From a virus, in the IMG/VR virus record IMGVR_UViG_3300025030_000039, positions 188,878-252,877 of that record: DNA of 64,000 bases, one strand, 5' to 3'. Below the pieces are notes generated by a model. It had not been told where the DNA came from. It saw only the letters and a program-made list of their open reading frames with translations, and did no database searches. Below, one piece after another: positions 37,588 through 53,762 of the stretch (positions within the stretch are counted from its first letter, which is position 1; each line of letters starts with the position of its first letter). The position numbers and the translations under genes are program-made.

Positions 37588-38433
37588 ATGGGACGTAACG
37601 ATAGAAATCAAGATTATTCTAAAGAGAATTATAAATTCGCCCAGGTTGATGAAAATATAATTTATCAATTAATAGATCAAAATCCTAAAATTTTTAAAAA
37701 GGGAAAATCTTTAGAAAAATCTTCAACAATTTGGAAAATCAATATTAATGTTAAAAAAGGATATTTAATTTCTATTTTAAATATTATTTGTTCATCTGAT
37801 AGATACAAATGGTTTGATAATTTAAATAATGAAGTAGGAAGCGTTTATTTATATAGAAAAGAATTTAAAAATGTCGAAAAACCTATATTTTATATCATTA
37901 TCTACAGATATGGAATTAGATTTGAATTTTCAGAATTATTTGATGGAACTAGTAACGGTTTGCCTAGAACAAATAGAATTATAACAGATGAAGAAGAAAA
38001 ATTAATGATAAGTAATATTAATAATAATATTAATTTAACTCACATAAAGCATATCATTAATAAATATTCTAAATTTTCTAATAATACTATACTAAATATT
38101 TATGAAGATATACAAATGAATGAAGTATTTAGCTCATTATTTAAATATATTAAAAAGTTTAAATTATATAAAAATATTGATATTAAAAATTTAAAAAATC
38201 TTTTTAATGCTTTTATCATTACATCTGAAGATATTCGTGTAGCTGTGTATGATAATATTAATAACATATTAATAGAATTATTTAAACTAATTGGAGATTA
38301 TTATTATAAATATTTAGAATATTTTATTGATAATGATCCAATTAAATATATCGAATTTATAAAAATTTGCAATAAAAAAATTCGTACAAAATATGAACAT
38401 TTATTTAATGCTGAAGATTTTAGTTTAATTTAA
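37588..38433 (+). CDS. hypothetical protein (281 aa)
   Basis: Track ORF. Confidence 0.45.
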   Translation: MGRNDRNQDYSKENYKFAQVDENIIYQLIDQNPKIFKKGKSLEKSSTIWKININVKKGYLISILNIICSSDRYKWFDNLNNEVGSVYLYRKEFKNVEKPIFYIIIYRYGIRFEFSELFDGTSNGLPRTNRIITDEEEKLMISNINNNINLTHIKHIINKYSKFSNNTILNIYEDIQMNEVFSSLFKYIKKFKLYKNIDIKNLKNLFNAFIITSEDIRVAVYDNINNILIELFKLIGDYYYKYLEYFIDNDPIKYIEFIKICNKKIRTKYEHLFNAEDFSLI

Positions 38434-38441
38434 AAATACTT

Positions 38442-38654
38442 ATGATTAAAAATTTTATTTTAACAGTCTTAACAATAGACTTAAATAGTCCTTACATAAA
38501 ACATGGGAGTTGGATTTTAATGACTATTATTTTTCTTATTGTTTTTGGTTATTTTAACAGTAATAAAAGTAGAGGAATTGATAGTTTATCAAATGGAATA
38601 TTTACAATATTTTGTTATTTAATTTCATGGATAATTTGGTTAATAATTTATTAA
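38442..38654 (+). CDS. small membrane protein (two TM segments)
   Basis: Track ORF, hydrophobic. Confidence 0.35.
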   Translation: MIKNFILTVLTIDLNSPYIKHGSWILMTIIFLIVFGYFNSNKSRGIDSLSNGIFTIFCYLISWIIWLIIY

Positions 38655-38655
38655 T

Positions 38656-39036
38656 ATGAGAAAATTTACAGAAGGCTATATTTTAGAGGAAGATGAATTT
38701 CTTTTAAAGATTTCAGGATCTGGATATCGTGAACATAATGCTAATAAAGGATTTTTAACAAAATTTACGCAAAAAGGAAAAATTCCTTTACCTTTTAAAA
38801 ATTGGCATCCAGACCTTGACATATATGTAGTTAAAGAGGAATTTCGAAAAGGATGGAAAATCGTTGGCTTTAGAGAAGGAATGAGTACAACTTGGGTAAT
38901 ATTAGTTCATCCGAATAATTATACTCTTGAAATTAATATTAGTAATTTTATAAATTTACTTAAAGAAATAACAATTGATAAAGGTGAACTAATAGGAGAA
39001 TTTAGATGGGAAGATCATAATTTAATTCAAAAATAA
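38656..39036 (+). CDS. hypothetical protein (126 aa)
   Basis: Track ORF. Confidence 0.4.
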   Translation: MRKFTEGYILEEDEFLLKISGSGYREHNANKGFLTKFTQKGKIPLPFKNWHPDLDIYVVKEEFRKGWKIVGFREGMSTTWVILVHPNNYTLEINISNFINLLKEITIDKGELIGEFRWEDHNLIQK

Positions 39037-39067
39037 TATTCAAATTTATGCAAATAATTAAAATAAT

Positions 39068-39334
39068 ATGAAAAACCTTTTAAAAATAAAAACACTTCTA
39101 AAAAATATTCCAGAAAAAGTATTATATGATTTTGATTTATTGAAATTATTAAGAGAAGTTCAAATTAATGCTGTAGAAGTATCATTAGAATTAGCGGCTA
39201 AATCAGCTACGACTAAAGATGATCCTAATTCTTATGCCGGAAATACTGGAAGTGAATGTTCTGCTGATATCATAGTTGATACAAAATCAATATTAGATTG
39301 TAGACAAACTTTAATTAATCAAATTTATGAATAG
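39068..39334 (+). CDS. hypothetical protein (88 aa)
   Basis: Track ORF. Confidence 0.35.
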   Translation: MKNLLKIKTLLKNIPEKVLYDFDLLKLLREVQINAVEVSLELAAKSATTKDDPNSYAGNTGSECSADIIVDTKSILDCRQTLINQIYE

Positions 39335-39839
39335 AAATTGGAGTAGAAAAGATCGTCATACTAGAAGAAAAATAAAAGGTATTATTGATAAAATAGAATT
39401 TGCTACTAAAGATATGCCTATAATACTTGAAGTTGTTGCATGTGGTTCTTATAGAAGGCAGTTTGATTATTGTGGTGATTTAAATATGTTATTTAAATTA
39501 TCAAATATTGATAAAGTTGGAGATGTTATTCCTATACTTATAAATAAAATAGGACCTGATGAAATATTAACACATGGAAAAAAGAAATCAAATATTTTAA
39601 TAAATAAAGTTCAAATTGATTTAAATTTCTCAAGTGTTGAATCATGGCCTTATGCTTTATTACATCATACTGGATCAGTCGAAGAAAGTATTAGGTTACG
39701 AAAAGTAGCAAAAAATAAAAATTTAAAACTAAATGAAAAAGGATTATATAATGAAAATGATGAATTAATTAAATTATCTTCAGAAAGAGATATTTATAAT
39801 TATTTAGGTATTGAATATAGAAGTCCAGAAAATAGATAA
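39327..39839 (+). CDS. minimal DNA polymerase X-like nucleotidyltransferase (palm and thumb only, 170 aa)
   Basis: VACGSYRRQFDYCGDLNML matches the Pol-beta GS.RRG...GDxD motif with the second Asp replaced by Asn. IDLNF, LLHHTGS, LNEKGLY and ERDIYNYLGIEYRSPENR match the Pol-beta palm and thumb motifs. The size recalls the ~174-aa minimal Pol X of African swine fever virus. Confidence 0.65.
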   Translation: MNRNWSRKDRHTRRKIKGIIDKIEFATKDMPIILEVVACGSYRRQFDYCGDLNMLFKLSNIDKVGDVIPILINKIGPDEILTHGKKKSNILINKVQIDLNFSSVESWPYALLHHTGSVEESIRLRKVAKNKNLKLNEKGLYNENDELIKLSSERDIYNYLGIEYRSPENR

Positions 39840-40251
39840 AACAATGGAAATTTTAGAAAAGATATTTTTAAGAAAAGCTAAGAAAAAATATTATACAAGT
39901 TTAAGTCCTAATATTGCAATAGAACATATTGTATATAATTTTTTTAATGATGAAATAATTATTCCGTCAGGATATATTAGTGATGAAATTCAGTTTGTAT
40001 TAAATGATTTATATTTTAATTATAAAAATAAAAATGATTTTAAATTTAGAATTATAAATTTTATGTATAAATATCATAAACAAAAAGAAACTAAACTAAA
40101 ATATAATTTAAGTCCTAAAGATAATAAAGTATGGGCATGGAATAAAAAAATGTGGAGAACTACAAAATATTTTTTAGGAATTAAATATTATGTTTATACT
40201 CTTATTAAACATAATCAAAAAGATTTAGAAATTAAATATTCATTTAAATGA
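39811..40251 (+). CDS. hypothetical protein (146 aa)
   Basis: Track ORF, the last of the plus run. Convergent with tnpB. Confidence 0.4.
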   Translation: MNIEVQKIDKTMEILEKIFLRKAKKKYYTSLSPNIAIEHIVYNFFNDEIIIPSGYISDEIQFVLNDLYFNYKNKNDFKFRIINFMYKYHKQKETKLKYNLSPKDNKVWAWNKKMWRTTKYFLGIKYYVYTLIKHNQKDLEIKYSFK

Positions 40252-40350
40252 AAAAAGAAGAAATAATAGGTACTACTGGTAAACTTGTTGATTTATTTAA
40301 AATATAAAATTCAATAAATTAAATAATTAATTATAAAAAAGTATAAATAT

Positions 40351-41673
40351 CTATATTTTGTCTATAAAGACATAATTAAGAACCATACTTTTATGTGAAT
40401 TTTGCTTAAAAACATCAAACTCATGTAAACACTCATCCAATGAAACTCGATATTTCAATCTCGAATTTTTTACAACCTCAATATAAAATCCCTTCCAATC
40501 CTTAAACGATGTAACCATTTCCTTCCATCGGTGTTTCACATCAAAAACTGGATAAAACCCTACCTTGCTTTTCTTTATTCTATACTCGTACCCTCGTCTA
40601 GCAATCTCTATCGACGCATTTACCGCATCAGTATATTCGTATTGCATATTCCCTATAAAACTAGAATACGCTGGATTAACTTCATATAAACCAATACCTA
40701 ATACATTCAATCTTTTAGCCAAATTAGAAATAAATTTATCTCTCTTCCATAAATTTCTATTCTTTCGATTTCCTATTTTATTATGTTTTTGCTCTTTAGT
40801 TAATTTTTGCTTAAACTTCAAATCCTCAATATATACAGTCTTACAACCAAACTGTCTAGCAATCAATGATACAGATTTAGCAATCTCGATCGTTTCAAAA
40901 TTTAATTTATTCTGATAATACTTCATCTTAACAGAATCTGAACTTAATTTTTTACTTAAAATTTTATTAAAAATTAATTTCAAACTAAACTCTTGAGCAT
41001 GAATAACTTTATTATTTTCTAAAACGGAAATTCCAATTGTATCTGGATTCAAATCGATACCTAAATACCTATTTTCATTTAATTGCTTAATCTCTTTATT
41101 CTTAAACTCTTCGAAACTTATATAAACATACTTCATATCAAATCGAACAGAATATGTATATCCATGCTCATTATATTTAACTTCATTTAATTGTTGAAGC
41201 CTAAACAACTCTTTCTTTATATTATTCCTTAAATTAGGTAATTCAAGTTCTATATGTTTAACTTTATTTAACTTAAATATTATTTTATTATTCTCTATAA
41301 TATTCAACTTAAAACTTCTATTTCCTTTTTTTAATACTTCGCCTTGAATATTTAATGGACTCAATCGTTTTAAATCAAATTCTTCTTTAGAAATTTTGTC
41401 TTTTAATCTATTAATAAAATTAAACTTTCCACCAAATACAACTTTAATATCTTCAAACCTCTTCTGCATTGCTTTACCATCCAATATAGCACATTGAACT
41501 AACCAAGAGTTAAGCAAATCAACATTACTTAACTCTTTAGTCAATAATCTTATTTCCTTCTCATTCTTACCCTCGAGAAATCGATTATAACTATACCTTA
41601 CAACATTAGAGTATTGCTTAAGTATAGAAGTTAAATCTTCATCAGTTTTATATGGTAACTTAATTGTTTTCAA
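40351..41673 (-). CDS. tnpB: TnpB-like RuvC-fold nuclease (OrfB; IS605/IS607 accessory protein), zinc-finger-less variant with TTG start
   Basis: RuvC-I is YLGIDLNPDTIGISV. RuvC-II Glu is in KTVYIEDLKF. RuvC-III is VNPAYSS...YTDAVNASIEIARRG. The usual CxxC...CxxC zinc finger between RuvC-II and RuvC-III is absent. The first in-frame codon after two TAA stops that could start translation is TTG at 41673. Confidence 0.8.
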   Translation of the reverse strand: MKTIKLPYKTDEDLTSILKQYSNVVRYSYNRFLEGKNEKEIRLLTKELSNVDLLNSWLVQCAILDGKAMQKRFEDIKVVFGGKFNFINRLKDKISKEEFDLKRLSPLNIQGEVLKKGNRSFKLNIIENNKIIFKLNKVKHIELELPNLRNNIKKELFRLQQLNEVKYNEHGYTYSVRFDMKYVYISFEEFKNKEIKQLNENRYLGIDLNPDTIGISVLENNKVIHAQEFSLKLIFNKILSKKLSSDSVKMKYYQNKLNFETIEIAKSVSLIARQFGCKTVYIEDLKFKQKLTKEQKHNKIGNRKNRNLWKRDKFISNLAKRLNVLGIGLYEVNPAYSSFIGNMQYEYTDAVNASIEIARRGYEYRIKKSKVGFYPVFDVKHRWKEMVTSFKDWKGFYIEVVKNSRLKYRVSLDECLHEFDVFKQNSHKSMVLNYVFIDKI

Positions 41674-41675
41674 TC

Positions 41676-41840
41676 TTATTTATTAATTAATGCTTTTATA
41701 TCTTTATCTTTTATAAAATTCAAACCACCAATCTTTACAAAATTCAACACACCCTTTTCCTTCCAATTATATAAAGTCTGTCTAGTAACATTAAATTCTT
41801 TACATACCTTCGATAGTTTTAATAACTTAAAATCTTCCAT
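41676..41840 (-). CDS. 54-aa MerR-like HTH protein resembling the N-terminus of IS607 TnpA serine recombinase (catalytic domain absent)
   Basis: MEDFKLLKLSKVCKEFNVTRQTLYNWKEKGVLNFVKIGGLNFIKDKDIKALINK matches the IS607 TnpA N-terminal pattern (...TLRRWDREGKL...). Its stop lies 2 nt before the tnpB TTG, in a different frame. Confidence 0.55.
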   Translation of the reverse strand: MEDFKLLKLSKVCKEFNVTRQTLYNWKEKGVLNFVKIGGLNFIKDKDIKALINK

Positions 41841-41968
41841 TGCTTAAAATATTAATTTATTTTATATATCATCAAGCCTTTATAGTTTTATATAAAATTT
41901 AGTTATATTTTTAAATTAAAAACTTTAATATTATATTTAATTATTAAATTTATATAAATTATAACAAA

Positions 41969-42304
41969 TTGATATTAGATAATAATAAAGAATTAACTCA
42001 AAAAGAATGGAATGCTCTTTGTATAATTCATAAATTAACATTAAGACTTGATATTGGTATAAGATTTGACTGGTCAAAATCAATTGATGTTAAACATAAA
42101 AGTATATCACAGATTATTGATGAAAGTGTTTTTTTAAATAAAGAAACTAAAAAAATTATTATAAGTAAATCTAAAAGTTTTTACGGTAACCATGGTAGAA
42201 TATCATGTAATTGGTATAGATGTACTAAATGCAATTCAACAACTATACTGGAACTTGATAAATATTGTTCTAAATGTGGTACAGAATTAATTTGGGAAGA
42301 ATAA
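41969..42304 (+). CDS. Zn-ribbon hypothetical protein (CTKCNS...CSKCG)
   Basis: Track ORF. The promoter-like motif AAAACTTTAATATTATATTTAA is at 41918-41940. Confidence 0.45.
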   Translation: MILDNNKELTQKEWNALCIIHKLTLRLDIGIRFDWSKSIDVKHKSISQIIDESVFLNKETKKIIISKSKSFYGNHGRISCNWYRCTKCNSTTILELDKYCSKCGTELIWEE

Positions 42305-42336
42305 TTACGAAATATATTTACTTAGATTAAAAAATT

Positions 42337-42711
42337 ATGTATATTAAATATATAGAGCAAAAAATTTCATATGCTAGTACAGTTATTGATAATACGTATT
42401 TAATCAATACTTCAGAAATATTTTCAATTAAATGTACTAAAAGAACTGAAGAATATACAAAGCCTGGAGGTTTTTCAGAAGTATATTTAAAAGAGTTTGG
42501 ATTTATTACTATCTATAAAACTGATAAAATGTATCATCAATTTAATTTTACTAGTCATAAAAATACCGATGAATTTATAATGAAATTAGAAGAATATATA
42601 ATTAATAATGAATCAATTGTTAAAGAAATTATAATTGAACACGAAGTAGTAGAAAGACCTAAATTTCCTGATAAAGAAAATTCTAATACATTCGATATAA
42701 AAATAAATTAA
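42337..42711 (+). CDS. hypothetical protein (124 aa)
   Basis: Track ORF. Confidence 0.4.
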   Translation: MYIKYIEQKISYASTVIDNTYLINTSEIFSIKCTKRTEEYTKPGGFSEVYLKEFGFITIYKTDKMYHQFNFTSHKNTDEFIMKLEEYIINNESIVKEIIIEHEVVERPKFPDKENSNTFDIKIN

Positions 42712-42715
42712 ATAA

Positions 42716-43168
42716 ATGGAAGCTTTTGAAAAATTAGAAAAAGTTCTTAATCATATACAAAACGTTCAGAGAATTGCACAAAAACTTGGTATCATTTTAA
42801 TTAAAAAAGGTGAACAAGAATTAGGAAGAAATCTTATAGCAAATGCGCAAATACATGATAATAGTAAATTAAAAGGTATTGAATTTGAACATTTATTTGC
42901 AGGCGATGAATTATTAAATGTTACAATTAAACATCATCATACAACAAATCCTCATCATCCTGAATATTGGGGAGATATTAAAAATATGCCAGATGTTTAT
43001 ATAGCTGAAATGATATGCGATTTTATATCTAGATCTACGGAATTCGGTACAAGTGTTAGAGAATGGATAGAAAAAAATGCAACAAAAAAATATTCATTTG
43101 AAATGACTGATGAAATCGGTATAAAAATAAGTTATTTTATGAATTTAGTTTTAGATAAACCTTTTTGA
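42716..43168 (+). CDS. possible HD-domain phosphohydrolase
   Basis: NHIQNV...IHDNSK (H...HD) followed by His-rich HHHTTNPHHPE and an Asp in MICDF. The pattern is compatible with an HD metal-binding site. The match is weak. Confidence 0.4.
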   Translation: MEAFEKLEKVLNHIQNVQRIAQKLGIILIKKGEQELGRNLIANAQIHDNSKLKGIEFEHLFAGDELLNVTIKHHHTTNPHHPEYWGDIKNMPDVYIAEMICDFISRSTEFGTSVREWIEKNATKKYSFEMTDEIGIKISYFMNLVLDKPF

Positions 43169-43345
43169 AATGATTGAAATAGGAAAAATTTATACTTATA
43201 AGGATGGTAGATCTGTTATAGTTATACAAAAAAGTGATAAACAATTAAGAGCAGAAGTATCAGATGATATAGAAAACAAATGGAATCCATTTTGGATATA
43301 CTATTCTGATTTAATTTTTATACTTTAAATAAAATTTTTAAATTT

Positions 43346-43367
43346 AAAACTTTTTTATTATATTTAC
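43346..43367 (+). promoter_or_regulatory. class A promoter-like motif (AAAACTTTTTTATTATATTTAC)
   Basis: It sits about 30 nt before the ATG at 43399. Confidence 0.45.
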
Positions 43368-43398
43368 ATATTATTTAATTTAAATCTGTTATTATACT

Positions 43399-43740
43399 AT
43401 GCTAAAACCTGAACATATATATTTTCATATTTTAGATTCAGATATAATAGGTCATATAGAAGTCGTTATAACTCCTATTGAAATATTTAATAAAGTTAAG
43501 TTTATTTCAAGCATAAAAACATATCCTGAACTTAAAAATATTTTTAATGAATTAGAATTAGAATTTATTGATTCTTCAAGACTTATTCATAATGGTATTT
43601 TAACAAAAGAAGAATTAAATGATAAAATGCTTTCTTTAGGATTTAAAACAAACGAAGAATTTAAAGAAATAACAGAAAGTTTTTTTGAAATTGAATACGT
43701 TCCAAAATCAATTGAAGAATTAAAAAATTTAATAAAATGA
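43399..43740 (+). CDS. hypothetical protein (113 aa)
   Basis: Track ORF. Confidence 0.4.
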   Translation: MLKPEHIYFHILDSDIIGHIEVVITPIEIFNKVKFISSIKTYPELKNIFNELELEFIDSSRLIHNGILTKEELNDKMLSLGFKTNEEFKEITESFFEIEYVPKSIEELKNLIK

Positions 43741-43970
43741 AAATATTATTTTTACTTTTAAGTATTATTATTTTAACATCTTGTAGTGTATCAACATCAA
43801 AAATTGATGCTAATAAATTTAATACTAATGATATTACATATATAGAAGATACTAGAACTGGTGTATGTTATGCTATAATAGCTGTTCAAAAAGGTGGAAA
43901 TTTTGAACAAAATGGAATTGGATTTACAGAAGTTCCTTGTGATAAAGTAAAAGAATATTTAAATAAATAA
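43737..43970 (+). CDS. lipoprotein (MKILFLLLSIIILTSCS)
   Basis: Signal peptide plus lipobox Cys. Confidence 0.45.
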   Translation: MKILFLLLSIIILTSCSVSTSKIDANKFNTNDITYIEDTRTGVCYAIIAVQKGGNFEQNGIGFTEVPCDKVKEYLNK

Positions 43971-44011
43971 ACAATATTTATTAATCTCATATAAATTTAA
44001 AATAATTACAT

Positions 44012-44452
44012 ATGAAAATTGCTAAAGGTCTTAAAATAAAAAATGAGTTAAAAATAAAATTATCTCATCTTCAATCTCTTTTAATACAACATAATTCTTC
44101 AATCGTTGGATCAACTAATGATTATAATACAGAAGAAGTATTAAAAGAATATATTGAGGTAAGAGATAAACTTATTTTACTTAAAACAAATTTACAAAAG
44201 GCTACTTTACCTATTTATCAAAAAATATTTCGTATTTCTGAATTGAAAGCTACAATTAAAGCGTTAAGAAGTATGAATACAATATCTGGTAAAACAGTTA
44301 ATTCTAGATATGGCGGTAGTGAAGTTATTGAAAATATAGCAACAATTGGTAACTTAGCTGTCGATAAAAAAGTTAAAGATATTGAATTTGAAATTTCAAA
44401 TTTACAAGATGAAATTGATGAATTCAACAATACTACTAATTTTGAATTTTAA
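44012..44452 (+). CDS. coiled-coil hypothetical protein (146 aa)
   Basis: Track ORF. Confidence 0.4.
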   Translation: MKIAKGLKIKNELKIKLSHLQSLLIQHNSSIVGSTNDYNTEEVLKEYIEVRDKLILLKTNLQKATLPIYQKIFRISELKATIKALRSMNTISGKTVNSRYGGSEVIENIATIGNLAVDKKVKDIEFEISNLQDEIDEFNNTTNFEF

Positions 44453-44677
44453 TTTATTATTGGTATAGGGAACAGCGAAAGTGATTAATTATTACATTAC
44501 CCAGCAAGGTAAAACTTAAATTCTGACATTTAGATAACGTTAAAGATAATGAATTCAAAATTTATTCTTTATAATTCAAATATTCAAAATTTAAAATTTA
44601 AAAATCATCTTTGTAAATTTTAATTATTATTAGCTGTTTCCGTTTTTAAAACAAATAAATATATAAATAATAAAATA

Positions 44678-44922
44678 ATGAACAAGATACAGCGATGGAG
44701 TTATCCAAAAGTGTATACTAAATTAAATTTATTGGCTGAGGAAGAAGGTTTCTTTATTAAGCAGGTGAATCCAGCATATACTAGTCAGACTTGTTCAGAA
44801 TGCGGGGAATATAGATAAAGAGAGTCCGTAAAGGTGAGGTTTATTTATGTTCGAGCTGTAAAATAGAGATTAATACAGCATTGAATATTTTGCATAGAGG
44901 AGTATATGGTCCCTCTAATTAA
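44678..44922 (+). pseudogene. tnpB: degraded C-terminal fragment of a second TnpB (retains the zinc finger and RuvC-III motif, with an in-frame stop and a frameshift)
   Basis: Reading across one stop and one frame change gives ...IQRWSYPKVYTKLNLLAEEEGFFIKQVNPAYTSQTCSECG(EYR*) then ...RKGEVYLCSSCKIEINTALNILHRG. This holds the canonical TnpB VNPAYTSQTCSxCG and NxAxNIL.RG motifs. Confidence 0.65.
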
Positions 44923-44985
44923 AAATAATTATAATAAATACAAATTATGCGATTTAAAATATCAAATACTGGCAAAGGAGCATTC

Positions 44986-45016
44986 CTTTTTTCTGTCTCG
45001 TAAAGAAACAGAAAAA
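44986..45016 (+). other. imperfect palindrome / hairpin downstream of the TnpB remnant (TTTTTTCTGTCTCG-TAAA-GAAACAGAAAAA)
   Basis: Seen directly in the sequence. It could be a relic right-end or omega-RNA scaffold, or a terminator. Confidence 0.3.
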
Positions 45017-45026
45017 TAAATGCTTT

Positions 45027-45518
45027 ATGGGAAAAACTTACATTCATATTCAAAAAGCTAAACATGGTTTGGCTTATATTGAATTTAATGATTATTTAGA
45101 ATTAAATAATGAATATTATGAGAAACTAGATCAAATTTATGATTCATTTGGATTGTATTCTAAATATTTACGACATTGTCATAGAAGTGGGGAAACAGAT
45201 TGGTTATTTACAACTCGTATTAAAAAACGAAATAAGATTGCTAATAAAGATATGCAATCACAGTTGAATGATTATTATGGAATTGAAGAAAAGAATTTAA
45301 ACAAATTTAGAGATAAATCACTCAAAGTATTTCAACTTAAAAAGAAATATGGTATACCATCATCTTATAGTTATTTTACTTTTAGTAAAAAATTCTCAAC
45401 ATTTAAAGGAGCTTTAAGAGCTGGAAAATCATCTATTAAAAATAATAGATATTTTGAATTTGAAATATTAGAAAATAATAAAATAATTTATAAAGAAAAT
45501 AAAAATGGAAGAAATTGA
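45027..45518 (+). CDS. hypothetical protein (163 aa)
   Basis: Track ORF. Confidence 0.45.
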   Translation: MGKTYIHIQKAKHGLAYIEFNDYLELNNEYYEKLDQIYDSFGLYSKYLRHCHRSGETDWLFTTRIKKRNKIANKDMQSQLNDYYGIEEKNLNKFRDKSLKVFQLKKKYGIPSSYSYFTFSKKFSTFKGALRAGKSSIKNNRYFEFEILENNKIIYKENKNGRN

Positions 45519-45969
45519 AGATTTAAAATTTGAATCAGAATTAAATAAAAAAAATACTTTAGAGGAAGTAAAAGAGTATTATGAACAAATTTATGCTAAA
45601 AGATTAACTAGTAGTTATACTATTAATATTGGAGGTCCTATATACAATAAATATTTAGTTAACTATTTAAAAAATAAAGTAAAATGGAGTGGTAAAGAAA
45701 TTTTATTTCTTAATACTTTAGTTAATAATTTAGAAGTAAATTTATCTAAAGATAATTTCAAATTACCTGCTATGTTTGTTGAAGGAATTGATCAATTTTT
45801 ATCTCGTCATGAGGGCTTTGGATGCGCTAGTGGTGATAAAATATTTAATATATTTGTGTCATTACAAAATGTAGTTTTATATTTAACAGAATTACAAAAT
45901 GAATTAAAAGCAACAAAAAATAAATTAATTCAATTAGAGACAGAACGAGCAAAAGTACAGATGGTTTAA
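45505..45969 (+). CDS. hypothetical protein (154 aa)
   Basis: Track ORF. Confidence 0.45.
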   Translation: MEEIEDLKFESELNKKNTLEEVKEYYEQIYAKRLTSSYTINIGGPIYNKYLVNYLKNKVKWSGKEILFLNTLVNNLEVNLSKDNFKLPAMFVEGIDQFLSRHEGFGCASGDKIFNIFVSLQNVVLYLTELQNELKATKNKLIQLETERAKVQMV

Positions 45970-46014
45970 TAAAGTACGAATTACGAAAAACGAATACTTA
46001 AAACAGTCAAAATA

Positions 46015-46353
46015 ATGGATGAAAAAGAGTTAAAAGAAAAAATTAAAAATGAATTAGTAGGAGTTGAACTTAAAAAAATAATTCCATCAACTACTAGAGT
46101 GCAAGCTGTTCATCTTAAAATTAATGGTACTAATTATCAAGTTACAGTTTCTCCATTACCTAGATTATGGACCGAAACAGCGGCTTATGAAGCAACAAGA
46201 ACTGGAAGAGTTTTAGATTTTACAAAGTCGTTCTTTAAATTCCAAGGTGATGATATATTTGAAGGTATTAAAGAATTATCTAATTGCTTAAATGGATTAC
46301 CATTTAAAAATGAAAATAATACTAAACCATTATTAGATTTTAAACTAAAATAA
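46015..46353 (+). CDS. hypothetical protein (112 aa)
   Basis: Track ORF. Confidence 0.4.
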   Translation: MDEKELKEKIKNELVGVELKKIIPSTTRVQAVHLKINGTNYQVTVSPLPRLWTETAAYEATRTGRVLDFTKSFFKFQGDDIFEGIKELSNCLNGLPFKNENNTKPLLDFKLK

Positions 46354-46391
46354 ATATGAAAATTTTTAAACGACATACCCTCATAATTAGA

Positions 46392-46422
46392 GGAGAATAA
46401 TTAGTTCCCTATATTATTCTCC
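46392..46422 (+). terminator. perfect 10-bp stem hairpin (GGAGAATAAT-11 nt-ATTATTCTCC) before a rare strong Shine-Dalgarno (AAGGAGG)
   Basis: Seen directly in the sequence. It lies between 46015-46353 and 46446-46727. No U-tract follows, so it may be regulatory rather than a terminator. Confidence 0.35.
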
Positions 46423-46445
46423 AATAACAAAATAAGGAGGATAAT

Positions 46446-46727
46446 ATGAAAAATTACAAAAGAGCTCTAAGAAGAGATCAAAAAAGAACTAAGTATATTA
46501 AACGTTTAAAGATGTTTTATTTTAGTGATTCATGGTTAGTTAATTGTAAATCATGGACTGATGTTGAAAAAGAACATCCAGTAATAGCATATAAATTAAA
46601 AACAATGTCTACGACATGCAGTTGTGAAATGTGTGCTTATTTAAAATATAATAGAACGGAATTTAAACATAAAACAAATAAATTATTAAATGAGTTTGAA
46701 TACAATTACGAAAATTCAGTATTATGA
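46446..46727 (+). CDS. hypothetical protein (93 aa; CSCEMC)
   Basis: Track ORF with an AAGGAGG 7 nt upstream. Confidence 0.45.
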   Translation: MKNYKRALRRDQKRTKYIKRLKMFYFSDSWLVNCKSWTDVEKEHPVIAYKLKTMSTTCSCEMCAYLKYNRTEFKHKTNKLLNEFEYNYENSVL

Positions 46728-46917
46728 TATAGTAACTAAATATAAAAATACTTATCATAATCCTATTAAAATTAAAGCTAATCCAAATGTTTCAGCAGAA
46801 GATATTATGAAATTTGCTTATAAAAATAAATTTATTAATGAAGATGATTTTCATTTTAAAATCAAAATTAATCCTATCACTGAACACCAATATAAAAAAT
46901 TAAGTATGACAAAATGA
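46690..46917 (+). CDS. hypothetical protein (75 aa)
   Basis: Track ORF. Confidence 0.35.
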   Translation: MSLNTITKIQYYDIVTKYKNTYHNPIKIKANPNVSAEDIMKFAYKNKFINEDDFHFKIKINPITEHQYKKLSMTK

Positions 46918-47312
46918 AAAAAATTTTATTTATATTATTAACATTTTCATTTTCATTTATATATGCTCAAGATTATTATAATCCTGATCAAGCAGAAATT
47001 AATGATTTAAAAATGATTATAAAAACATATGAAAAGGAAAATTTATCATTAAAAAATGATTGTAAAGATTTAAATGATAAATTTATTAAAACTATAGATT
47101 CTCTTACATTACAAAATATAGAAACAGTTAAAATGCTAACTAATTTAAAATTTGATTTAAAAGTCATTTATGCTGTAAATAAAGCCAAAATTAAATTTTT
47201 AGAAAACCAAATGAATCTTAGTCATGAATTTTCTATTCGACTTATAGATATAGTTATGCTTGGATTTATTATTGTAATTTTTACATTATTACCAACATCT
47301 AAAAAGAATTAA
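46914..47312 (+). CDS. secreted protein with C-terminal TM anchor (signal peptide ...FSFIYAQ)
   Basis: Signal peptide ending in AQ, then a coiled-coil region and a C-terminal hydrophobic segment. Confidence 0.45.
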   Translation: MKKILFILLTFSFSFIYAQDYYNPDQAEINDLKMIIKTYEKENLSLKNDCKDLNDKFIKTIDSLTLQNIETVKMLTNLKFDLKVIYAVNKAKIKFLENQMNLSHEFSIRLIDIVMLGFIIVIFTLLPTSKKN

Positions 47313-47321
47313 ATTTTAAAA

Positions 47322-47368
47322 TTACTTTAAATCTTATTTTTATTTTAAACCCTTTGTTATTATATTTA
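47322..47368 (+). repeat. 47-bp direct repeat, copy 1, containing a class B promoter-like motif (CCTTTGTTATTATATTTA)
   Basis: Identical to 47984-48030 (TTACTTTAAATCTTATTTTTATTTTAAACCCTTTGTTATTATATTTA). Confidence 0.6.
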
Positions 47369-47388
47369 TTTTAAATAATAATAATTAT

Positions 47389-47958
47389 ATGGAAACTTTA
47401 AGATTAAATAGATATTCAGTATGGTCAAAATATGTTAGAACATTTTGGGGAATTAAAGATGAATCCACATTATCTGATATATGCTCGTATCGAGCATATA
47501 GTATTTTACCTGCTATTTTATTACCATTTACTATAACATCTTATATTATATGGGAATTATTTAGATATATTTTGGATGGAAAACATAGTTATAAAAATGA
47601 TAATGGTTTAAATGTAATATGGTTAATTTTTGTACCATTTATTTTATCATGTATATTAACGTTCGTTGAAAATAAAGATCATATAAGTCTTAATATGGTT
47701 TTAAATATTGATAAATTAACATTTTATATTTTAAGTTATTTTGCTTCTCCTATTATTGGAATTCTTATATTATTAATATTAATAGCATTTCTTGCAATGC
47801 TTATGGGAATATATAAGTTAGGTGAAATAATTATTGAAATAATTAAAGATCTTTTTAAATCAAAAAATGAAACAACTAAAGTGAAGAAACCTACATTATT
47901 AGGCGAATTTCATAAAAGTTTAAAAGAAAAATATTGTACAAAAATAGAATGGTTTTAA
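47389..47958 (+). CDS. integral membrane protein (about 4 TM segments)
   Basis: Track ORF flanked by identical 47-bp direct repeats. Confidence 0.45.
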   Translation: METLRLNRYSVWSKYVRTFWGIKDESTLSDICSYRAYSILPAILLPFTITSYIIWELFRYILDGKHSYKNDNGLNVIWLIFVPFILSCILTFVENKDHISLNMVLNIDKLTFYILSYFASPIIGILILLILIAFLAMLMGIYKLGEIIIEIIKDLFKSKNETTKVKKPTLLGEFHKSLKEKYCTKIEWF

Positions 47959-47983
47959 GTAAGAAAATAATATCGATTATTAA

Positions 47984-48030
47984 TTACTTTAAATCTTATT
48001 TTTATTTTAAACCCTTTGTTATTATATTTA
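47984..48030 (+). repeat. 47-bp direct repeat, copy 2, containing a class B promoter-like motif
   Basis: Identical to 47322-47368. It sits about 28 nt before the ATG at 48056. Confidence 0.6.
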
Positions 48031-48055
48031 CCTATAATTATTAAAATAAATTTTT

Positions 48056-48370
48056 ATGAAAAACTGGCCATTTACAGAAGAAATAGGGCAAGGTCCTAGA
48101 AGTATTATCAGACAAGATATTATGCAGTTACCAAATGTTAAAAATTGTATGACAAAGGACGATACAATTACTATTGTAGATTCTTTTAATGTTAAACATC
48201 CAGATGAAAAACATTCTGTAAATATCCCGCTTGTTGAAGATATCATTAAAAATTATTCTAAAGGTGCTGGGTTTGTTATTGAATCAATGACATCAAAAAG
48301 AGTTCAAATTAAAAATACCGATACTTATCATTTGATTTATACAATACACAATTTTGATAAAATAAAGTAA
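48056..48370 (+). CDS. hypothetical protein (104 aa)
   Basis: Track ORF. Confidence 0.4.
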   Translation: MKNWPFTEEIGQGPRSIIRQDIMQLPNVKNCMTKDDTITIVDSFNVKHPDEKHSVNIPLVEDIIKNYSKGAGFVIESMTSKRVQIKNTDTYHLIYTIHNFDKIK

Positions 48371-48371
48371 A

Positions 48372-48935
48372 ATGAATTTTACCAATTTTAATAAAAGAAT
48401 TTTTTCAAAATACCCTGGTATCAATTGGATTGGTACTAGTGGTACATTGAAAATTGATGAAAAGAGAATGGTAACTATTACTATAAATGATCCTGCAATT
48501 CATCAACATTATACTTCATATAAATGTGAAATTAAAAATATTTTACTCGGTAATAGTATAGCATTTAAATCTTTTAATTTTAATGAACATTTAGTTATTG
48601 ATGATAATAGAAAATCAGACAGTAATGGTATTAAATTAATTTCTTATGTTAAAATTGATTGGTATAATGCTCCTAAAAATGAAACACAAATTGCTGATAT
48701 TATTTTTAATTGGATTAATCAATATAAAATAGTTGAAGATAAAAAGAAATTTATTGTTTTAACTGATGAAGGAACTACAATGTCTCCTAATGGGAAAGAT
48801 GTTGAAAATTTACAAGTTTTAGCAATATTAGAATCAAAAGATAAAGAATTAGCGGAACTTGAATTTAAGCATGATTATAAAAAAATGCTAAAAGACGGTA
48901 AATGGAAAAACTATAAAATTCACGAATTAATTTAA
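48372..48935 (+). CDS. hypothetical protein (187 aa)
   Basis: Track ORF. Confidence 0.45.
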   Translation: MNFTNFNKRIFSKYPGINWIGTSGTLKIDEKRMVTITINDPAIHQHYTSYKCEIKNILLGNSIAFKSFNFNEHLVIDDNRKSDSNGIKLISYVKIDWYNAPKNETQIADIIFNWINQYKIVEDKKKFIVLTDEGTTMSPNGKDVENLQVLAILESKDKELAELEFKHDYKKMLKDGKWKNYKIHELI

Positions 48936-48937
48936 TT

Positions 48938-49663
48938 ATGTTAATTGTATCTAATTTTCACGACTATTATGATACATCTATGGGAATCCATGGAATAGAT
49001 AAAACTATTGTTTATAATAGAAAAACCGAAGAAATAAAAAAATTTCATATAGACTTAGAAAAAAAATTACCACATATTTCAAAAGGATATAGTATCCGTT
49101 TTAATAGTACTGTTACTAAAGATAAACCTAATATGATTCCTTACATTATCGGGTTTTGTGGTAAATCTTATGTTGTATATAAAAAATCTTGGTATGAAGA
49201 ATATCCCACTGAAAATTTTGAATTCATATATGATTATGAAGAAATAAAAAAAATATTACTTAATAATAAAGAAAGATATGATTTAAATAAACATACAGAA
49301 TTACAATTAGCTGAAGCCTATAAGTTTTATCATAATAAACCTTTATTTAAAAATGTATTTTTAGAGTTAAAAACACCGATCTTTTCATATGAACTTCATA
49401 AACAATTTATAATAAATCCAAAACTTTTAGATTACCAATTTTTTAAAGTTTTTGATCCATTTACAACATTTCAAGAAATACAAATGTTTATAGGTGGTGT
49501 ATTAACTAATCCCGAAAAAAATTATATTCAAATTGATGAAAAATATCGTCAAGCACAAAGAGGTTTAGATAAAACATCTTTCAGACAACAAGCTCCAGGT
49601 AAAAAGAAAGAACAAAGAAAAATTAATAAAGAACGTAAACGTAAAACTAATGAAAACAAATAA
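48938..49663 (+). CDS. hypothetical protein with a very basic C-terminal tail (241 aa)
   Basis: Track ORF. The last ~30 residues are K/R-rich. Confidence 0.45.
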   Translation: MLIVSNFHDYYDTSMGIHGIDKTIVYNRKTEEIKKFHIDLEKKLPHISKGYSIRFNSTVTKDKPNMIPYIIGFCGKSYVVYKKSWYEEYPTENFEFIYDYEEIKKILLNNKERYDLNKHTELQLAEAYKFYHNKPLFKNVFLELKTPIFSYELHKQFIINPKLLDYQFFKVFDPFTTFQEIQMFIGGVLTNPEKNYIQIDEKYRQAQRGLDKTSFRQQAPGKKKEQRKINKERKRKTNENK

Positions 49664-49991
49664 ATTAGTACTCTTATATATTTCAATATCTTTACTATTT
49701 TCATGCGCTTCTAATAATACTACCGATAAAAAATATGAACCTGAACCTGAATTTAAAAATAGTGAATATCCTATTATAAAGTGGGTATTAATATCTTCAC
49801 AAAATAAAGGTTATCTTATAACTTTAGATGAAAATGAAAAATATTTTTTTATATGGCCTGAAGGACCTGTATTTAACTATAATACTGAAGAGGAAGTATC
49901 ACCTCATAAATATTTAGAGTTATCTGATATGATACAAGACTTTAAAAATAAATCAAAAATAAAAGAAATTAAAAAACTTTATAATGATTAA
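49650..49991 (+). CDS. lipoprotein (MKTNKLVLLYISISLLFSCAS)
   Basis: Signal peptide plus lipobox Cys. Confidence 0.45.
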   Translation: MKTNKLVLLYISISLLFSCASNNTTDKKYEPEPEFKNSEYPIIKWVLISSQNKGYLITLDENEKYFFIWPEGPVFNYNTEEEVSPHKYLELSDMIQDFKNKSKIKEIKKLYND

Positions 49992-50274
49992 AGTATATTT
50001 AAATTCAAATTTTATAATAGACTCTATTAATCAAAATTTAACTGGTGAGTTAACTCATGTAGCAAATATTGATATATTAGATTTGGAAAAAGCCTTTTAT
50101 TTAACACAAAATTTAACAGATTCTTGGATTAAAAATAAAGAAATTGTTCCTGTTATTAATGAACTTCAAAGATCAATATCTGCTGGAGATGTATTTGAAT
50201 ATGCAGATACTTTTTATTTTATTGATATGATAAGATTTAAAGAAATAGAAGTAGATAAATCTAAAATTAAATAA
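49984..50274 (+). CDS. hypothetical protein (96 aa)
   Basis: Track ORF. Confidence 0.4.
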   Translation: MIKVYLNSNFIIDSINQNLTGELTHVANIDILDLEKAFYLTQNLTDSWIKNKEIVPVINELQRSISAGDVFEYADTFYFIDMIRFKEIEVDKSKIK

Positions 50275-50275
50275 T

Positions 50276-50674
50276 ATGAATCGAAAAATTGATAAAGATA
50301 TTTTCAAAAAAAATATTAGTGATAGTGCAAAAATTATAAGAACATTAATTGAAAAAGCAATTAATTCTCACGAAATAACTATTGATGAACATGAAAAAAT
50401 TACTCATTTAGCAACTGCTGATGGATTAATTGATAATCATGAAAAAGCATTACTTGCACAATTAAACGATTTAATTAATGATAAAACGATTAAATTTGTT
50501 AAAAGTAAAGAAGCTGTTTTAAAAGAAAAAACCTCTTTAACAAAAGATGAAATAAAAATTTTATTAAACGATGAGTTTATAATTTTTGAAAAGAAATGGC
50601 ATGGTGTTATGAATGGTTCAGATCTACAAACTTTAGCGCAATTTATTATGCAAATAAATGAAAAATTAAAATAA
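50276..50674 (+). CDS. hypothetical protein (132 aa)
   Basis: Track ORF. Confidence 0.4.
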   Translation: MNRKIDKDIFKKNISDSAKIIRTLIEKAINSHEITIDEHEKITHLATADGLIDNHEKALLAQLNDLINDKTIKFVKSKEAVLKEKTSLTKDEIKILLNDEFIIFEKKWHGVMNGSDLQTLAQFIMQINEKLK

Positions 50675-51421: not shown

Positions 51422-51447
51422 ATTCATTAATTACGAATTACGAATTA

Positions 51448-52631: not shown

Positions 52632-52648
52632 TTACTTTTTAAAATTTT

Positions 52649-53747: not shown

Positions 53748-53762
53748 ATAAAAAATTAATCT

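What the first reader, a model, noticed from the sequence alone, without database searches (positions are those of the whole stretch)
40252..41900. IS607/IS605-type element: a TnpA reduced to its MerR-like HTH, abutting a zinc-finger-less TnpB with an intact RuvC triad and a TTG start
The 440-aa TnpB has all three RuvC catalytic residues in the canonical context (GIDLN, IEDL, TDAVNASIEIARRG). The segment between RuvC-II and RuvC-III (VNPAYSSFIGNMQYEYTD) has no cysteines, so the usual CxxC...CxxC zinc finger is missing. Immediately upstream is a 54-aa ORF that is a very good match to the N-terminal MerR-like HTH of IS607 serine-recombinase TnpA, but the recombinase catalytic domain is absent. 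The element therefore looks immobilised. The HTH stop lies 2 nt before tnpB's only plausible start, a TTG in a different frame. The arrangement interrupts two plus-strand gene runs. An intact nuclease with no transposase partner fits either a selfish RNA-guided nuclease relic or a domesticated HTH-plus-TnpB unit.
Basis: partly seen in the sequence, partly recalled or inferred. Interest (0 to 1): 0.75.

Follow-up and report, generated by a model that had tools for sequence, protein, structure and literature searches.

The report
Transposase-less IS607 guide-RNA nuclease element
A 1.7-kb IS607-type mobile element sits inside a gene of a 462-kb phage; it keeps only the DNA-binding head of its transposase, plus an intact zinc-finger-less TnpB nuclease and its guide-RNA scaffold, and it is a maintained, multi-copy element rather than a dead relic.

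Summary
The ORFs, the D-E-D RuvC triad, the lack of cysteines and the TTG start are all real. The window is uncultured huge phage LR756500.1.

The 440-aa protein is a TnpB/Cas12f-fold nuclease of a roughly 1,000-cluster family, typified by ISCaje4 of Campylobacter phages. No sampled member has the zinc ribbon, so this copy lost nothing. Relatives 72-77% identical pair with a genuine 198-aa IS607 serine-recombinase TnpA.

The 54-aa HTH sits where tnpA sits and aligns with the N-terminal HTH of family TnpAs. By sequence alone it is only an HTH_17 domain.

The element spans 40298-41982 (-), with TTA at both junctions. Joining its flanks restores a conserved gene (MKKEEIIGTTGKLVDLF|NKELTQ...) that is uninterrupted in dozens of homologues.

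The same left end + HTH module occurs at three sites in this phage: twice as the complete unit and once with tnpB replaced. HTH dN/dS is 0.01-0.09 and TnpB 0.12. No full-length TnpA exists in the genome.

A structured RNA with strong covariation overlaps the tnpB 3' end.

Verdict: a selected, non-autonomous IS607/OMEGA element, not an immobilised relic. It is a new variant of a known kind, of moderate interest.

The parts
40298..41982 (-). Whole HTH-TnpB element (IS607-type, non-autonomous), flanked by TTA at both junctions
   Evidence: 87% nt identity over 1.69 kb with a second copy in the same phage (L014), and the flanks diverge outside these points. Joining 40297 to 41983 restores a conserved ORF.
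41841..41982 (-). Left end (non-coding, about 142 nt). It holds the terminal motif TTATCTAATATCAATTTGTTATAA and AT-rich repeats of roughly 13-nt period at 41891-41957. Probable promoter and HTH/TnpA-binding region (inferred).
   Evidence: 84-88% identical among the three phage copies, although dS is 0.3-0.95. The terminal motif resembles the left end of full elements, TTAACAATAATTTAACATAA. TRF period-13/26 repeat. Subterminal inverted repeat with the right end, 41931-41960 against 40307-40336, 83% complementary.
41676..41840 (-). 54-aa HTH_17/MerR-like protein in the tnpA position: the DNA-binding domain only, with no serine-recombinase domain
   Evidence: Pfam HTH_17, E 2e-6, 28.2 bits. Aligns to residues 1-45 of family TnpAs at 39-44% identity and scores 26.7 bits against a TnpA N-terminal profile. 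dN/dS is 0.01-0.09 among three copies.
40351..41673 (-). tnpB: a 440-aa TnpB/Cas12f-fold RuvC nuclease with a TTG start, triad D207/E283/D349 and no zinc ribbon
   Evidence: dN/dS is 0.12 against copy A. 37% identical to the ISCaje4 TnpB.
40298..40477 (-). Candidate omega-RNA (guide-RNA) scaffold: four helices overlapping the tnpB 3' end and ending at the right-end terminus ...TTGAATTTTATATTTTA. Synonymous-site constraint suggests it starts near 40590.
   Evidence: Covariance model R1 scores 107.7 bits, E 9.5e-19. 33 of 35 pairs show changes on both sides, and 92% of cells are paired against 66% in shuffles and 29-47% in slid controls. Synonymous differences fall to 5/71 in the last ~85 codons against 78/310 elsewhere, p = 4e-4.
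40331..40360 (-). 30-nt insertion specific to the phage copies. It lies in the loop of helix 4 and carries the tnpB stop codon, changing the C-terminus from ...VFYD* to ...VFIDKI*. Copy A has about 60 nt here.
   Evidence: Alignments A2 and A6.
40278..40297 (-). Predicted guide segment of the omega-RNA (AATAAATCAACAAGTTTACC), directly 3' of the right end
   Evidence: Inferred from the position of the right-end boundary and from published TnpB/IS607 biology (10.1101/2023.11.20.567912). Not tested.
40248..40297 (+). 5' fragment (16.7 codons, MKKEEIIGTTGKLVDL-F) of the phage gene split by the insertion. Its ATG overlaps the TGA of the preceding gene.
   Evidence: The reconstructed N-terminus matches the uninterrupted homologues MEEEIIGTTGKLVDLFNKELTQ....
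41983..42304 (+). 3' fragment of the split gene. It is callable as a 111-aa ORF only from a TTG at 41969 inside the left end.

Best explanation
This is a non-autonomous IS607-family OMEGA element of the zinc-ribbon-less, ISCaje4-like TnpB clade, inserted antisense into codon ~17 of a small conserved gene of a 462-kb phage.

**Content.** It carries, in order:
- a left end;
- a 54-aa gene encoding only the HTH_17/MerR-like DNA-binding domain that normally forms the N-terminus of the IS607 serine-recombinase TnpA;
- an abutting tnpB with an intact RuvC D-E-D site;
- a structured guide-RNA scaffold that overlaps the tnpB 3' end and stops at the right end.

**Shown.**
- The boundaries, and the disruption of a gene.
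- The left end + HTH + tnpB-start junction at three sites: two complete units and one hybrid.
- Purifying selection on both ORFs.
- The nuclease fold and catalytic triad.
- Covariation in the RNA.
- The absence of any full-length TnpA in the phage genome.

**Inferred mechanism.**
1. The left-end promoter drives HTH translation. TnpB, which has no Shine-Dalgarno sequence and a TTG start touching the HTH stop, is made by termination-reinitiation.
2. TnpB binds the omega-RNA, whose guide is the ~20 nt beyond the right end.
3. The complex cuts element-free alleles (TAM ending in TTA, followed by AATAAATCAAC...) in sister or co-infecting phage genomes. Recombinational repair then copies the element in, giving retention and homing without TnpA.
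4. Movement to new TTA sites, as must have produced the three insertions, needs a full-length TnpA supplied in trans by an autonomous relative in the host or in another phage.
5. The HTH-only protein binds the element's own ends. It acts as a regulator: an autorepressor, or a competitor or adaptor for that TnpA.
For: **Family and fold**
- Homologues: more than 1,170 hits, 1,016 cluster-50 representatives, and 188 in IMG/VR, often several copies per large phage contig.
- ISCaje4 is annotated in phage CP220 and has a 202-aa resolvase-type TnpA in phage WX1.
- Model pLDDT 89.5, with Cas12f, TnpB, Cas12k and Fanzor2 as top structural hits.
- GIDL, IEDL and YSS align to AsCas12f MGIDL, MEDL and YTS.
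- The triad is conserved and there is no zinc ribbon family-wide.

**IS607 nature**
- Relatives' TnpAs score 170-177 bits on transpos_IS607 and carry an N-terminal HTH_17.
- The window HTH aligns to their N-termini.

**Ends and insertion**
- define the ends.
- The restored ORF matches 83 homologues.
- Copy A likewise restores a 97-codon ORF, with chance about 1e-4.

**Copies and selection**
- Three sites in LR756500.1.
- HTH dN/dS 0.01, 0.04 and 0.09; TnpB 0.12.
- No TnpA in the 462-kb genome.

**RNA**
-.

**Published biology used**
- IS607 uses a core dinucleotide at both ends, the TAM includes it, and TnpB cuts the donor joint (10.1101/2023.11.20.567912).
- TnpA-independent, TnpB-driven spread has been described (PMC13565253).
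Against: - There is no expression or activity data.
- Curated TnpB HMMs are missed or sub-threshold.
- The HTH is no closer to TnpA N-termini (26.7 bits) than to generic HTH_17 (28.2 bits) or PADLOC mad1 (32 bits). Its TnpA origin therefore rests largely on synteny.
- DNA homology with full elements begins exactly at the tnpB start. The HTH is only ~31% identical to the TnpA of the lineage whose TnpB is 74-77% identical. The left-end-HTH module therefore has a different history, or evolved fast.
- No cognate full-length TnpA with this HTH was found.
- No element-free allele of this phage was found.
- The window copy has a C.A mismatch in the closing helix of the RNA.
- The HTH dN/dS values rest on only 12-21 substitutions per comparison.
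Confidence: 0.7

Rival explanations
1. Immobilised, decaying relic. An IS607 element lost its recombinase domain by deletion and is now eroding, and the open reading frames are intact only by chance or youth.
For: There is no catalytic domain and no TnpA anywhere in the phage. Copy B is visibly broken and chimeric. TnpB debris lies nearby at 44678-44818. Most family members in viral contigs are solo or carry truncated tnpA.
Against: Copies A and C differ at 13% of nucleotides (dS 0.5-0.8), yet the HTH has 14 synonymous changes against 1 non-synonymous, and TnpB has dN/dS 0.12. The truncated architecture predates three separate insertions. The triad, right end and RNA helices are intact.
Confidence: 0.08
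2. Domesticated or beneficial phage module. The HTH-TnpB pair serves the phage, for example as an RNA-guided weapon against competing phages or host DNA, or as an RNA-guided regulator, and no longer behaves as a transposon.
For: Both genes are under purifying selection without a transposase. The HTH remains intact even in copy B, where its TnpB is gone. The family is enriched and multi-copy in large phages. Homing endonucleases in phages can exclude competitors (PMC13565253).
Against: The unit has precise transposon ends, sits at three unrelated sites and splits two ORFs in antisense orientation. The guide is simply the adjacent flank, as in selfish OMEGA elements. The catalytic triad is intact, unlike the nuclease-dead TldR regulators. 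There is no CRISPR-like or guide array and no conserved genomic neighbourhood.
Confidence: 0.12
3. The HTH is not TnpA-derived. It is an unrelated small HTH_17 gene (excisionase, MAD1 or BldC-like) captured between the left end and tnpB of a solo-TnpB element.
For: The best library scores are generic: HTH_17 28.2 bits, PADLOC mad1 32 bits, TIGR01764 excisionase 22 bits, against IS607 TnpA 16 bits. There is no DNA homology to the tnpA of the closest full elements. Altae-Tran et al. report occasional extra HTH cargo in serine-recombinase-associated TnpB branches (PMC10691335).
Against: Among 48 ORFs upstream of family tnpBs, the significant hits (E 4e-9 to 2e-3) are all TnpAs or a TnpA derivative, aligned from residue 1. 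The ORF ends where tnpA ends, abutting the tnpB start. The left-end terminus is homologous to that of full elements. An independent in-frame deletion that leaves HTH plus a 25-aa tail exists in L050.
Confidence: 0.1

Closest known systems
ISCaje4 (IS607-type element of Campylobacter phages CP220, vB_CjeM_WX1 and F379)
   Same: Same TnpB family: 37% identity over 94% of the length, and the same YSSFIGN...D..ASIEI.RRG motif with no zinc ribbon. Resident in phages. Covariance model R1 finds the 3' RNA in it too. Some copies have a truncated tnpA.
   Different: ISCaje4 in WX1 has a complete 202-aa serine-recombinase TnpA, and CP220 keeps the C-terminal part. The window element keeps only the N-terminal HTH, as an ORF under selection. 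The sequences are too divergent to count as the same IS.
Autonomous relatives in metagenomes and phage contigs (for example L004, L006, L008, L021, L035)
   Same: TnpB 72-77% identical, a near-identical right end (TTGAATTTTGTATTTTA), the same RNA helices, a tnpB start at the same nucleotide, and the same TTA-type junctions.
   Different: They encode a 198-aa IS607 TnpA that overlaps tnpB by 14 nt, and they have an SD-like AGGAAA before an ATG or GTG start. The window element has a divergent left end and HTH with no recombinase domain, plus a 30-nt insertion at the tnpB stop.
Characterised IS607 TnpB systems (C. botulinum CboIStron; ISXfa1-type) and TnpB homing
   Same: Serine-recombinase family context, identical nucleotides at both junctions, a guide RNA running from the tnpB 3' end across the right end, and a predicted TAM that includes the junction nucleotides (10.1101/2023.11.20.567912).
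   Different: Those TnpBs have the C4 zinc ribbon and a GG/TGGG core and TAM. Here there is no zinc ribbon and a TTA core. There is no group I intron and no resident TnpA.
Cas12f, Fanzor2 and Cas12k (solved structures)
   Same: The overall WED/REC/RuvC fold (Foldseek probability 1.0).
   Different: 12-15% sequence identity. They contain a zinc-ribbon TNB domain between RuvC-II and RuvC-III, whereas this family has a 7-12 residue linker and a conserved ~90-aa C-terminal extension (W392, K401, Y407, R408). No CRISPR array is present.
DNA-binding-domain-only transposase derivatives that regulate transposition (IS1 InsA, P-element KP repressor)
   Same: A short protein consisting of the transposase's DNA-binding domain, encoded at the transposase position. 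This comparison rests on my own knowledge and is an analogy only.
   Different: Those act on DDE or THAP transposases. No such derivative is described for IS607, and repression by the protein here is untested.

Membership tests
TnpB (OMEGA RNA-guided nuclease) | RNase H/RuvC fold with a split D-E-D catalytic triad | tested here: met
   Model pLDDT 89.5 with top PDB hits Cas12f, TnpB and Fanzor2. Across 126 family sequences D207 is invariant, and E283 and D349 each have one exception. The motifs align to AsCas12f.
TnpB (OMEGA RNA-guided nuclease) | Passes curated family HMMs (Pfam OrfB_IS605 PF01385; TIGR01766) | tested here: not met
   No PF01385 hit. TIGR01766 scores 30.5 bits against a cut-off of 32, and TIGR01765 scores 30.1 against 47.25. 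Only PF27229 (SSO2105_N) is precomputed for the protein.
TnpB (OMEGA RNA-guided nuclease) | C4 zinc ribbon (OrfB_Zn_ribbon/TNB) between RuvC-II and RuvC-III | tested here: not met
   No PF07282 hit. The linker is 7-12 aa with 0-1 Cys in all 126 family sequences. Zinc-finger loss in some TnpB branches is published (PMC10691335).
TnpB (OMEGA RNA-guided nuclease) | Structured guide RNA encoded at the 3' end of tnpB and ending at the transposon right end | tested here: met
   The CM hit lies at the expected place in 62 loci, including the window. 33 of 35 pairs covary, and 92% of cells are paired against 66% in shuffles. Synonymous-site constraint is seen. Expression was not tested.
TnpB (OMEGA RNA-guided nuclease) | RNA-guided, TAM-dependent DNA cleavage | not testable with these tools
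   Only a candidate TAM (R-TTA 5' of the left end) was inferred from 18 junctions.
IS607 family insertion sequence | Encodes a serine-recombinase TnpA (N-terminal MerR-like HTH plus a C-terminal catalytic domain) | tested here: not met
   The window has only the 54-aa HTH. No TnpA exists in the whole phage genome. Relatives do encode it, at 170-177 bits against a cut-off of 110. The window element is therefore a non-autonomous derivative.
IS607 family insertion sequence | Defined left and right ends, no terminal inverted repeats or target duplication, and the same core nucleotides at both junctions | tested here: met
   TTA at both junctions, with precise restoration of the target ORF. Left- and right-end motifs are shared with full elements.
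IS607 family insertion sequence | Evidence of transposition: several copies at unrelated sites | tested here: met
   Three sites in LR756500.1 with unrelated flanks. Two of them interrupt ORFs.
TldR / nuclease-dead TnpB-like regulators | Loss of RuvC catalytic residues and a fixed genomic partner gene | tested here: not met
   The triad is intact and conserved. The three flanks are unrelated.
Cas12 (type V CRISPR effector) | Adjacent CRISPR array | tested here: not met
   No array within +/-5 kb, only weak AT-rich repeats. No PADLOC hit for the nuclease.
RIIIr-4 TnpB clade (Altae-Tran et al. 2023) | No zinc finger, with the RuvC-III Asp replaced by His and a MazE/RHH partner | tested here: not met
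   It lacks the zinc finger, but the RuvC-III position is Asp in 125 of 126 sequences, and the partner is an HTH_17 protein, not RHH. The clade definition is taken from PMC10691335.

The most novel reading that the evidence does not exclude
The HTH-only protein is not a leftover. It would be the dedicated DNA-end-binding partner of a TnpB element that has given up its own recombinase and now lives in huge phages as a free-standing RNA-guided homing-endonuclease cassette. In this reading the HTH tethers or regulates TnpB-omega-RNA at the element ends, or recruits a foreign TnpA. The locus would then capture a transposon-to-homing-element transition that needs neither a resident transposase nor the zinc ribbon found in most characterised TnpB and Cas12f nucleases.
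Probability: 0.2. Interest if true: 0.75.

Novelty: new variant of a known kind. Interest (0 to 1): 0.45.

Why it matters
- **A compact nuclease family.** The roughly 1,000-cluster, phage-rich TnpB family has a conserved active site but no zinc ribbon. These are compact (430-440 aa) candidate RNA-guided nucleases. They also test what the TNB zinc ribbon is for.
- **A two-gene minimal element.** A TnpA DNA-binding domain is kept as a separate gene under selection, next to tnpB, at three sites in a genome with no transposase. This suggests a regulatory or adaptor role for the HTH. It also offers a natural system for asking how OMEGA elements persist and spread in phage populations without their own recombinase.
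- **Otherwise ordinary.** In all other respects the locus is an insertion sequence of a known family.

Tried and rejected
- **Rfam:** a scan of 39000-43000 gave only chance-level hits, so no described omega-RNA family matches.
- **Relatives of flanking genes in IMG/VR:** none found.
- **Empty-site allele:** an exact-pattern search in JGI metagenomes gave 0 hits.
- **More copies of the unit:** a search with a conserved HTH coding pattern found only the copy-A contig.
- **Look-ups of P0002 and P0125:** not on record.
- **Contig L109:** it ends inside the left end and is uninformative.
- **HTH-TnpB fusion by frameshift or readthrough:** rejected. The junction is TAA-GA-TTG in this copy but TAA-TTG (in frame) in copies A and B, so no frame relation is conserved.
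- **Single-sequence AlphaFold2 of the HTH:** pLDDT 58.6, too poor for a fold search.
- **Promoter and terminator scan:** no enrichment over shuffles.
- **Direct BLASTP of the HTH against the TnpA of the closest full element:** no alignment.
- **RIIIr-4, TldR and Cas12 memberships:** considered and rejected (see the membership tests).
Full report
**Source and observation**

The window is 100% identical over 38000-44000 to LR756500.1, an unannotated 462,018-bp 'uncultured phage' genome. It has about 23% G+C and small, densely packed genes.

The two ORFs exist as described. tnpB is 40351-41673 (-), 440 aa, with a TTG start. The HTH ORF is 41676-41840 (-), 54 aa. Its TAA stop lies 2 nt before that TTG.

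**What the 440-aa protein is**

Curated models barely see it:
- There is no Pfam OrfB_IS605 or Zn-ribbon hit.
- TIGR01765 and TIGR01766 fall below threshold.

Other evidence is clear:
- tblastn finds the annotated ISCaje4 TnpB of Campylobacter phages (37% identity, E 2e-51), as well as copies in Lak megaphages.
- The protein databases hold more than 1,170 homologues, carrying Pfam PF27229 (SSO2105_N). They fall into 1,016 clusters at 50% identity.
- An AlphaFold2 model (pLDDT 89.5) matches AsCas12f, CnCas12f, ISFba1 TnpB, Cas12k and mimivirus Fanzor2, with Foldseek E from 6e-11 to 2e-6.
- A family profile aligns GIDL, IEDL and YSS to AsCas12f MGIDL, MEDL and YTS.

In 126 family sequences D207 is invariant, and E283 and D349 each have a single exception. 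The segment between YSSxIGN and the RuvC-III Asp is only 7-12 residues, with at most one cysteine.

The missing zinc ribbon is therefore a trait of the whole family, not a loss in this copy. Altae-Tran et al. (PMC10691335) already record that the zinc finger is lost in some large TnpB branches. Their named zinc-finger-less clade RIIIr-4 has His at RuvC-III and a MazE partner, which does not fit this family.

**IS607 context**

Relatives with 72-77% TnpB identity (L004, L006, L008, L021, L035) carry an overlapping 198-aa gene upstream.
- That gene scores 170-177 bits on NCBIfam transpos_IS607, cut-off 110.
- It has Pfam Resolvase plus an N-terminal HTH_17/MerR domain.
- Their tnpB begins with ATG or GTG at exactly the nucleotide where the window has TTG.

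ISCaje4 in phage WX1 likewise has a 202-aa TnpA.

Among 76 viral loci:
- about 11 have a full TnpA;
- four have C-terminal TnpA fragments;
- most are solo tnpB;
- one (L050) has a 73-aa in-frame deletion product consisting of the HTH plus the last ~25 residues.

**The 54-aa ORF**

It passes Pfam HTH_17 (28.2 bits, cut-off 27). It scores only 16 bits on the IS607 model, and it also resembles excisionase, BldC and MAD1-type HTHs.

Against the 48 ORFs found upstream of family tnpBs, its significant hits (E 4e-9 to 2e-3) are all TnpAs or the L050 TnpA derivative. They align from residue 1 at 39-44% identity. A profile of 14 TnpA N-termini gives 26.7 bits.

It is only ~31% identical to the TnpA of the lineage whose TnpB is closest. 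DNA homology with those full elements begins at the second base of the tnpB start codon. The left-end-HTH module is therefore either of different ancestry or has evolved fast.

I regard a TnpA origin as likely, at about 0.7, mainly from position and left-end homology.

**Boundaries and insertion**

A second complete copy (A; LR756500.1 ~367.25-368.96 kb, L014) is 87% identical over 1.69 kb. The flanks diverge at window 41982 and 40298.

The right end...TTGAATTTT(G/A)TATTTTA, is shared with the autonomous relatives. So is the left-end terminal motif, in diverged form. TTA occurs at both junctions. This parallels the core dinucleotide of characterised IS607 elements (10.1101/2023.11.20.567912).

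Joining 40297 to 41983 gives ATG AAA AAA GAA GAA ATA ATA GGT ACT ACT GGT AAA CTT GTT GAT TTA TTT AAT AAA GAA..., which translates to MKKEEIIGTTGKLVDLFNKELTQKEWNAL.... This matches 83 uninterrupted homologues that read MEEEIIGTTGKLVDLFNKELTQ(D/E)EWNAL.... One of them was checked at the DNA level.

The element is thus a true insertion, antisense, in codon ~17 of a conserved small gene. Copy A similarly restores a 97-codon ORF, with chance about 1e-4.

**Copy number and selection**

A third site (B; ~382.6 kb, L013) has the same left end, HTH and first 13 tnpB codons. These are then fused to the C-terminal third of a different IS607 TnpA and a different, fragmented TnpB.

All three share the HTH-stop/tnpB-start junction, so the recombinase-less architecture predates the three insertions. 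The junction is TAA-TTG in A and B but TAA-GA-TTG in the window, which excludes a conserved fusion or frameshift.

| Comparison | Synonymous / non-synonymous changes | dN/dS |
|---|---|---|
| HTH, A vs C | 14 / 1 | 0.01 |
| HTH, A vs B | 16 / 5 | 0.04 |
| HTH, B vs C | 8 / 4 | 0.09 |
| TnpB, A vs C | 90 / 62 | 0.12 |

The non-coding left end is 84-88% identical despite dS of 0.3-0.95.

tblastn with four TnpAs against the assembled 462-kb genome finds no full-length TnpA, only the fragment in copy B. Three further TnpB genes of the type carried by copy B lie at 222.0, 348.8 and 383.4 kb.

Outside this phage lineage the unit was not found.

**Guide RNA**

- Synonymous differences drop in the last ~85 codons of tnpB. 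For A against C the counts are 5/71 versus 78/310, p = 4e-4. Across all pairs the fraction is 0.15-0.21 versus 0.31-0.39.
- RNAalifold on 13 close relatives predicts four helices. One is a long-range helix pairing GCAAAATTCA in the ORF with TGAATTTTGT at the right-end tip.
- A covariance model built from this alignment hits the 3' end of tnpB, on the same strand, in 62 loci. These include ISCaje4, Lak phages and the window (40298-40477, 107.7 bits).
- On that alignment 92% of cells pair, against 66% in shuffles and 29-47% in slid controls. 33 of 35 pairs show changes on both sides. The alignment is fitted to the model, which inflates these numbers somewhat.
- The phage copies carry a 30-60-nt insertion in the loop of helix 4 that also moves the tnpB stop. 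The window copy has one C.A mismatch in the closing helix.
- Rfam has no matching family.

**Mechanism (inferred)**

By analogy with characterised TnpB and IS607 systems, TnpB plus the omega-RNA would cut element-free alleles. The guide would be the ~20 nt beyond the right end, AATAAATCAACAAGTTTACC. The target would be ...R-TTA followed by that sequence. Recombination would then restore or spread the element.

In a phage this can happen between co-infecting genomes and needs no TnpA (PMC13565253). Reaching new TTA sites needs a TnpA in trans.

The HTH, under strong constraint and encoded at the head of the operon, most plausibly binds the element ends as a regulator or adaptor. Candidate binding sites are the subterminal inverted repeat (40307-40336 against 41931-41960) and the ~13-nt periodic repeats in the left end. 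In 23% G+C DNA these are weak evidence. The promoter scan was uninformative.

**Verdict**

It is wrong about state: the zinc-finger absence is family-wide and already noted in the literature, and the element is neither immobilised, nor decaying, nor domesticated.

It is a new variant of a known kind, namely a maintained, multi-copy, recombinase-less HTH-TnpB-omega-RNA unit in a huge phage. Interest is moderate (0.45).

Noticed in passing
window 44678-44818 (+), with weak similarity across 44582-44950: A 46-aa ORF, MNKIQRWSYPKVYTKLNLLAEEEGFFIKQVNPAYTSQTCSECGEYR, is a fragment of a canonical zinc-ribbon-containing TnpB (PF07282 hit on record). This is a pseudogene remnant of a second kind of TnpB 2.7 kb from the element.
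   Followed up: partly
window 45423-45503 (+), the C-terminus of ORF 45027-45518: The last ~27 residues (...GKSSIKNNRYFEFEILENNKIIYKENK) resemble residues 111-137 of the zinc-finger-less TnpB family (55% identity, E 0.012). This may be debris of another copy fused to a phage ORF.
   Followed up: no
L013 4865-6637 (LR756500.1 ~382.6-384.4 kb, 5 kb upstream of the window start): Copy B is a hybrid. It has the left end, an intact HTH and 13 codons of tnpB, then the C-terminal ~70 aa of a different IS607 TnpA, then a TnpB of a different type (Pfam OrfB_IS605 hit) split into 77-aa and 321-aa ORFs. That TnpB has also lost most zinc-finger cysteines (TSKIDHL...FLSSICKVLNADTNGS).
   Followed up: partly
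LR756500.1 222005-222940, 348812-349726 and 383435-384397: Three TnpB genes of the copy-B type (35-36% identical to each other) lie elsewhere in the phage, none with a TnpA. The genome holds at least five TnpB genes and no transposase.
   Followed up: no
window 40248-40297 + 41983-42304; homologues P0277-P0358: The interrupted gene belongs to a family of ~72-aa proteins (EEIIGTTGKLVDLFN.LTQEEWNALC..HRL..RL..GIRFDWSKSIDV...SQIIDESVFLN). Members are 65-79% identical across many metagenomes and MAGs (Saprospiraceae, Flavobacterium, Omnitrophica). They have no Pfam domain and are unusually conserved for a small protein of unknown function.
   Followed up: partly
L050 12-233 (IMGVR_UViG_3300009671_000102): An independent case of a TnpA reduced to its HTH. 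This 73-aa ORF joins the N-terminal HTH in frame to the last ~25 residues of TnpA, and it overlaps the start of a family TnpB that is 43% identical to the window's.
   Followed up: partly
IMG/VR loci L022, L026 and L027; L039, L040 and L047; L066, L073 and L077: Several large viral contigs (130-313 kb) carry three copies each of this TnpB family. L025 and L026 show the same insertion in two different contigs, and L023 and L031 share a right-end flank but not a left-end flank. This points to recent activity and rearrangement in phage populations.
   Followed up: no
L018 and L019 (Prevotella phages Lak-B6 and Lak-C1): The family TnpB and its TnpA appear fragmented under translation table 11. This is consistent with stop-codon recoding, which I recall being reported for Lak phages, so these copies may be intact.
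   Followed up: no
window 44001-61803 against LR756500.1: The window and the GenBank record are collinear, but their lengths differ by 124 nt somewhere in this interval. Record position 450001 maps to window 61804 rather than 61928. Cause unknown.
   Followed up: no
window 39327-39839 (+): The 170-aa ORF two genes upstream of the insertion site has DNA polymerase beta/X palm and thumb hits (PF14792 weak, PF14791).
   Followed up: no
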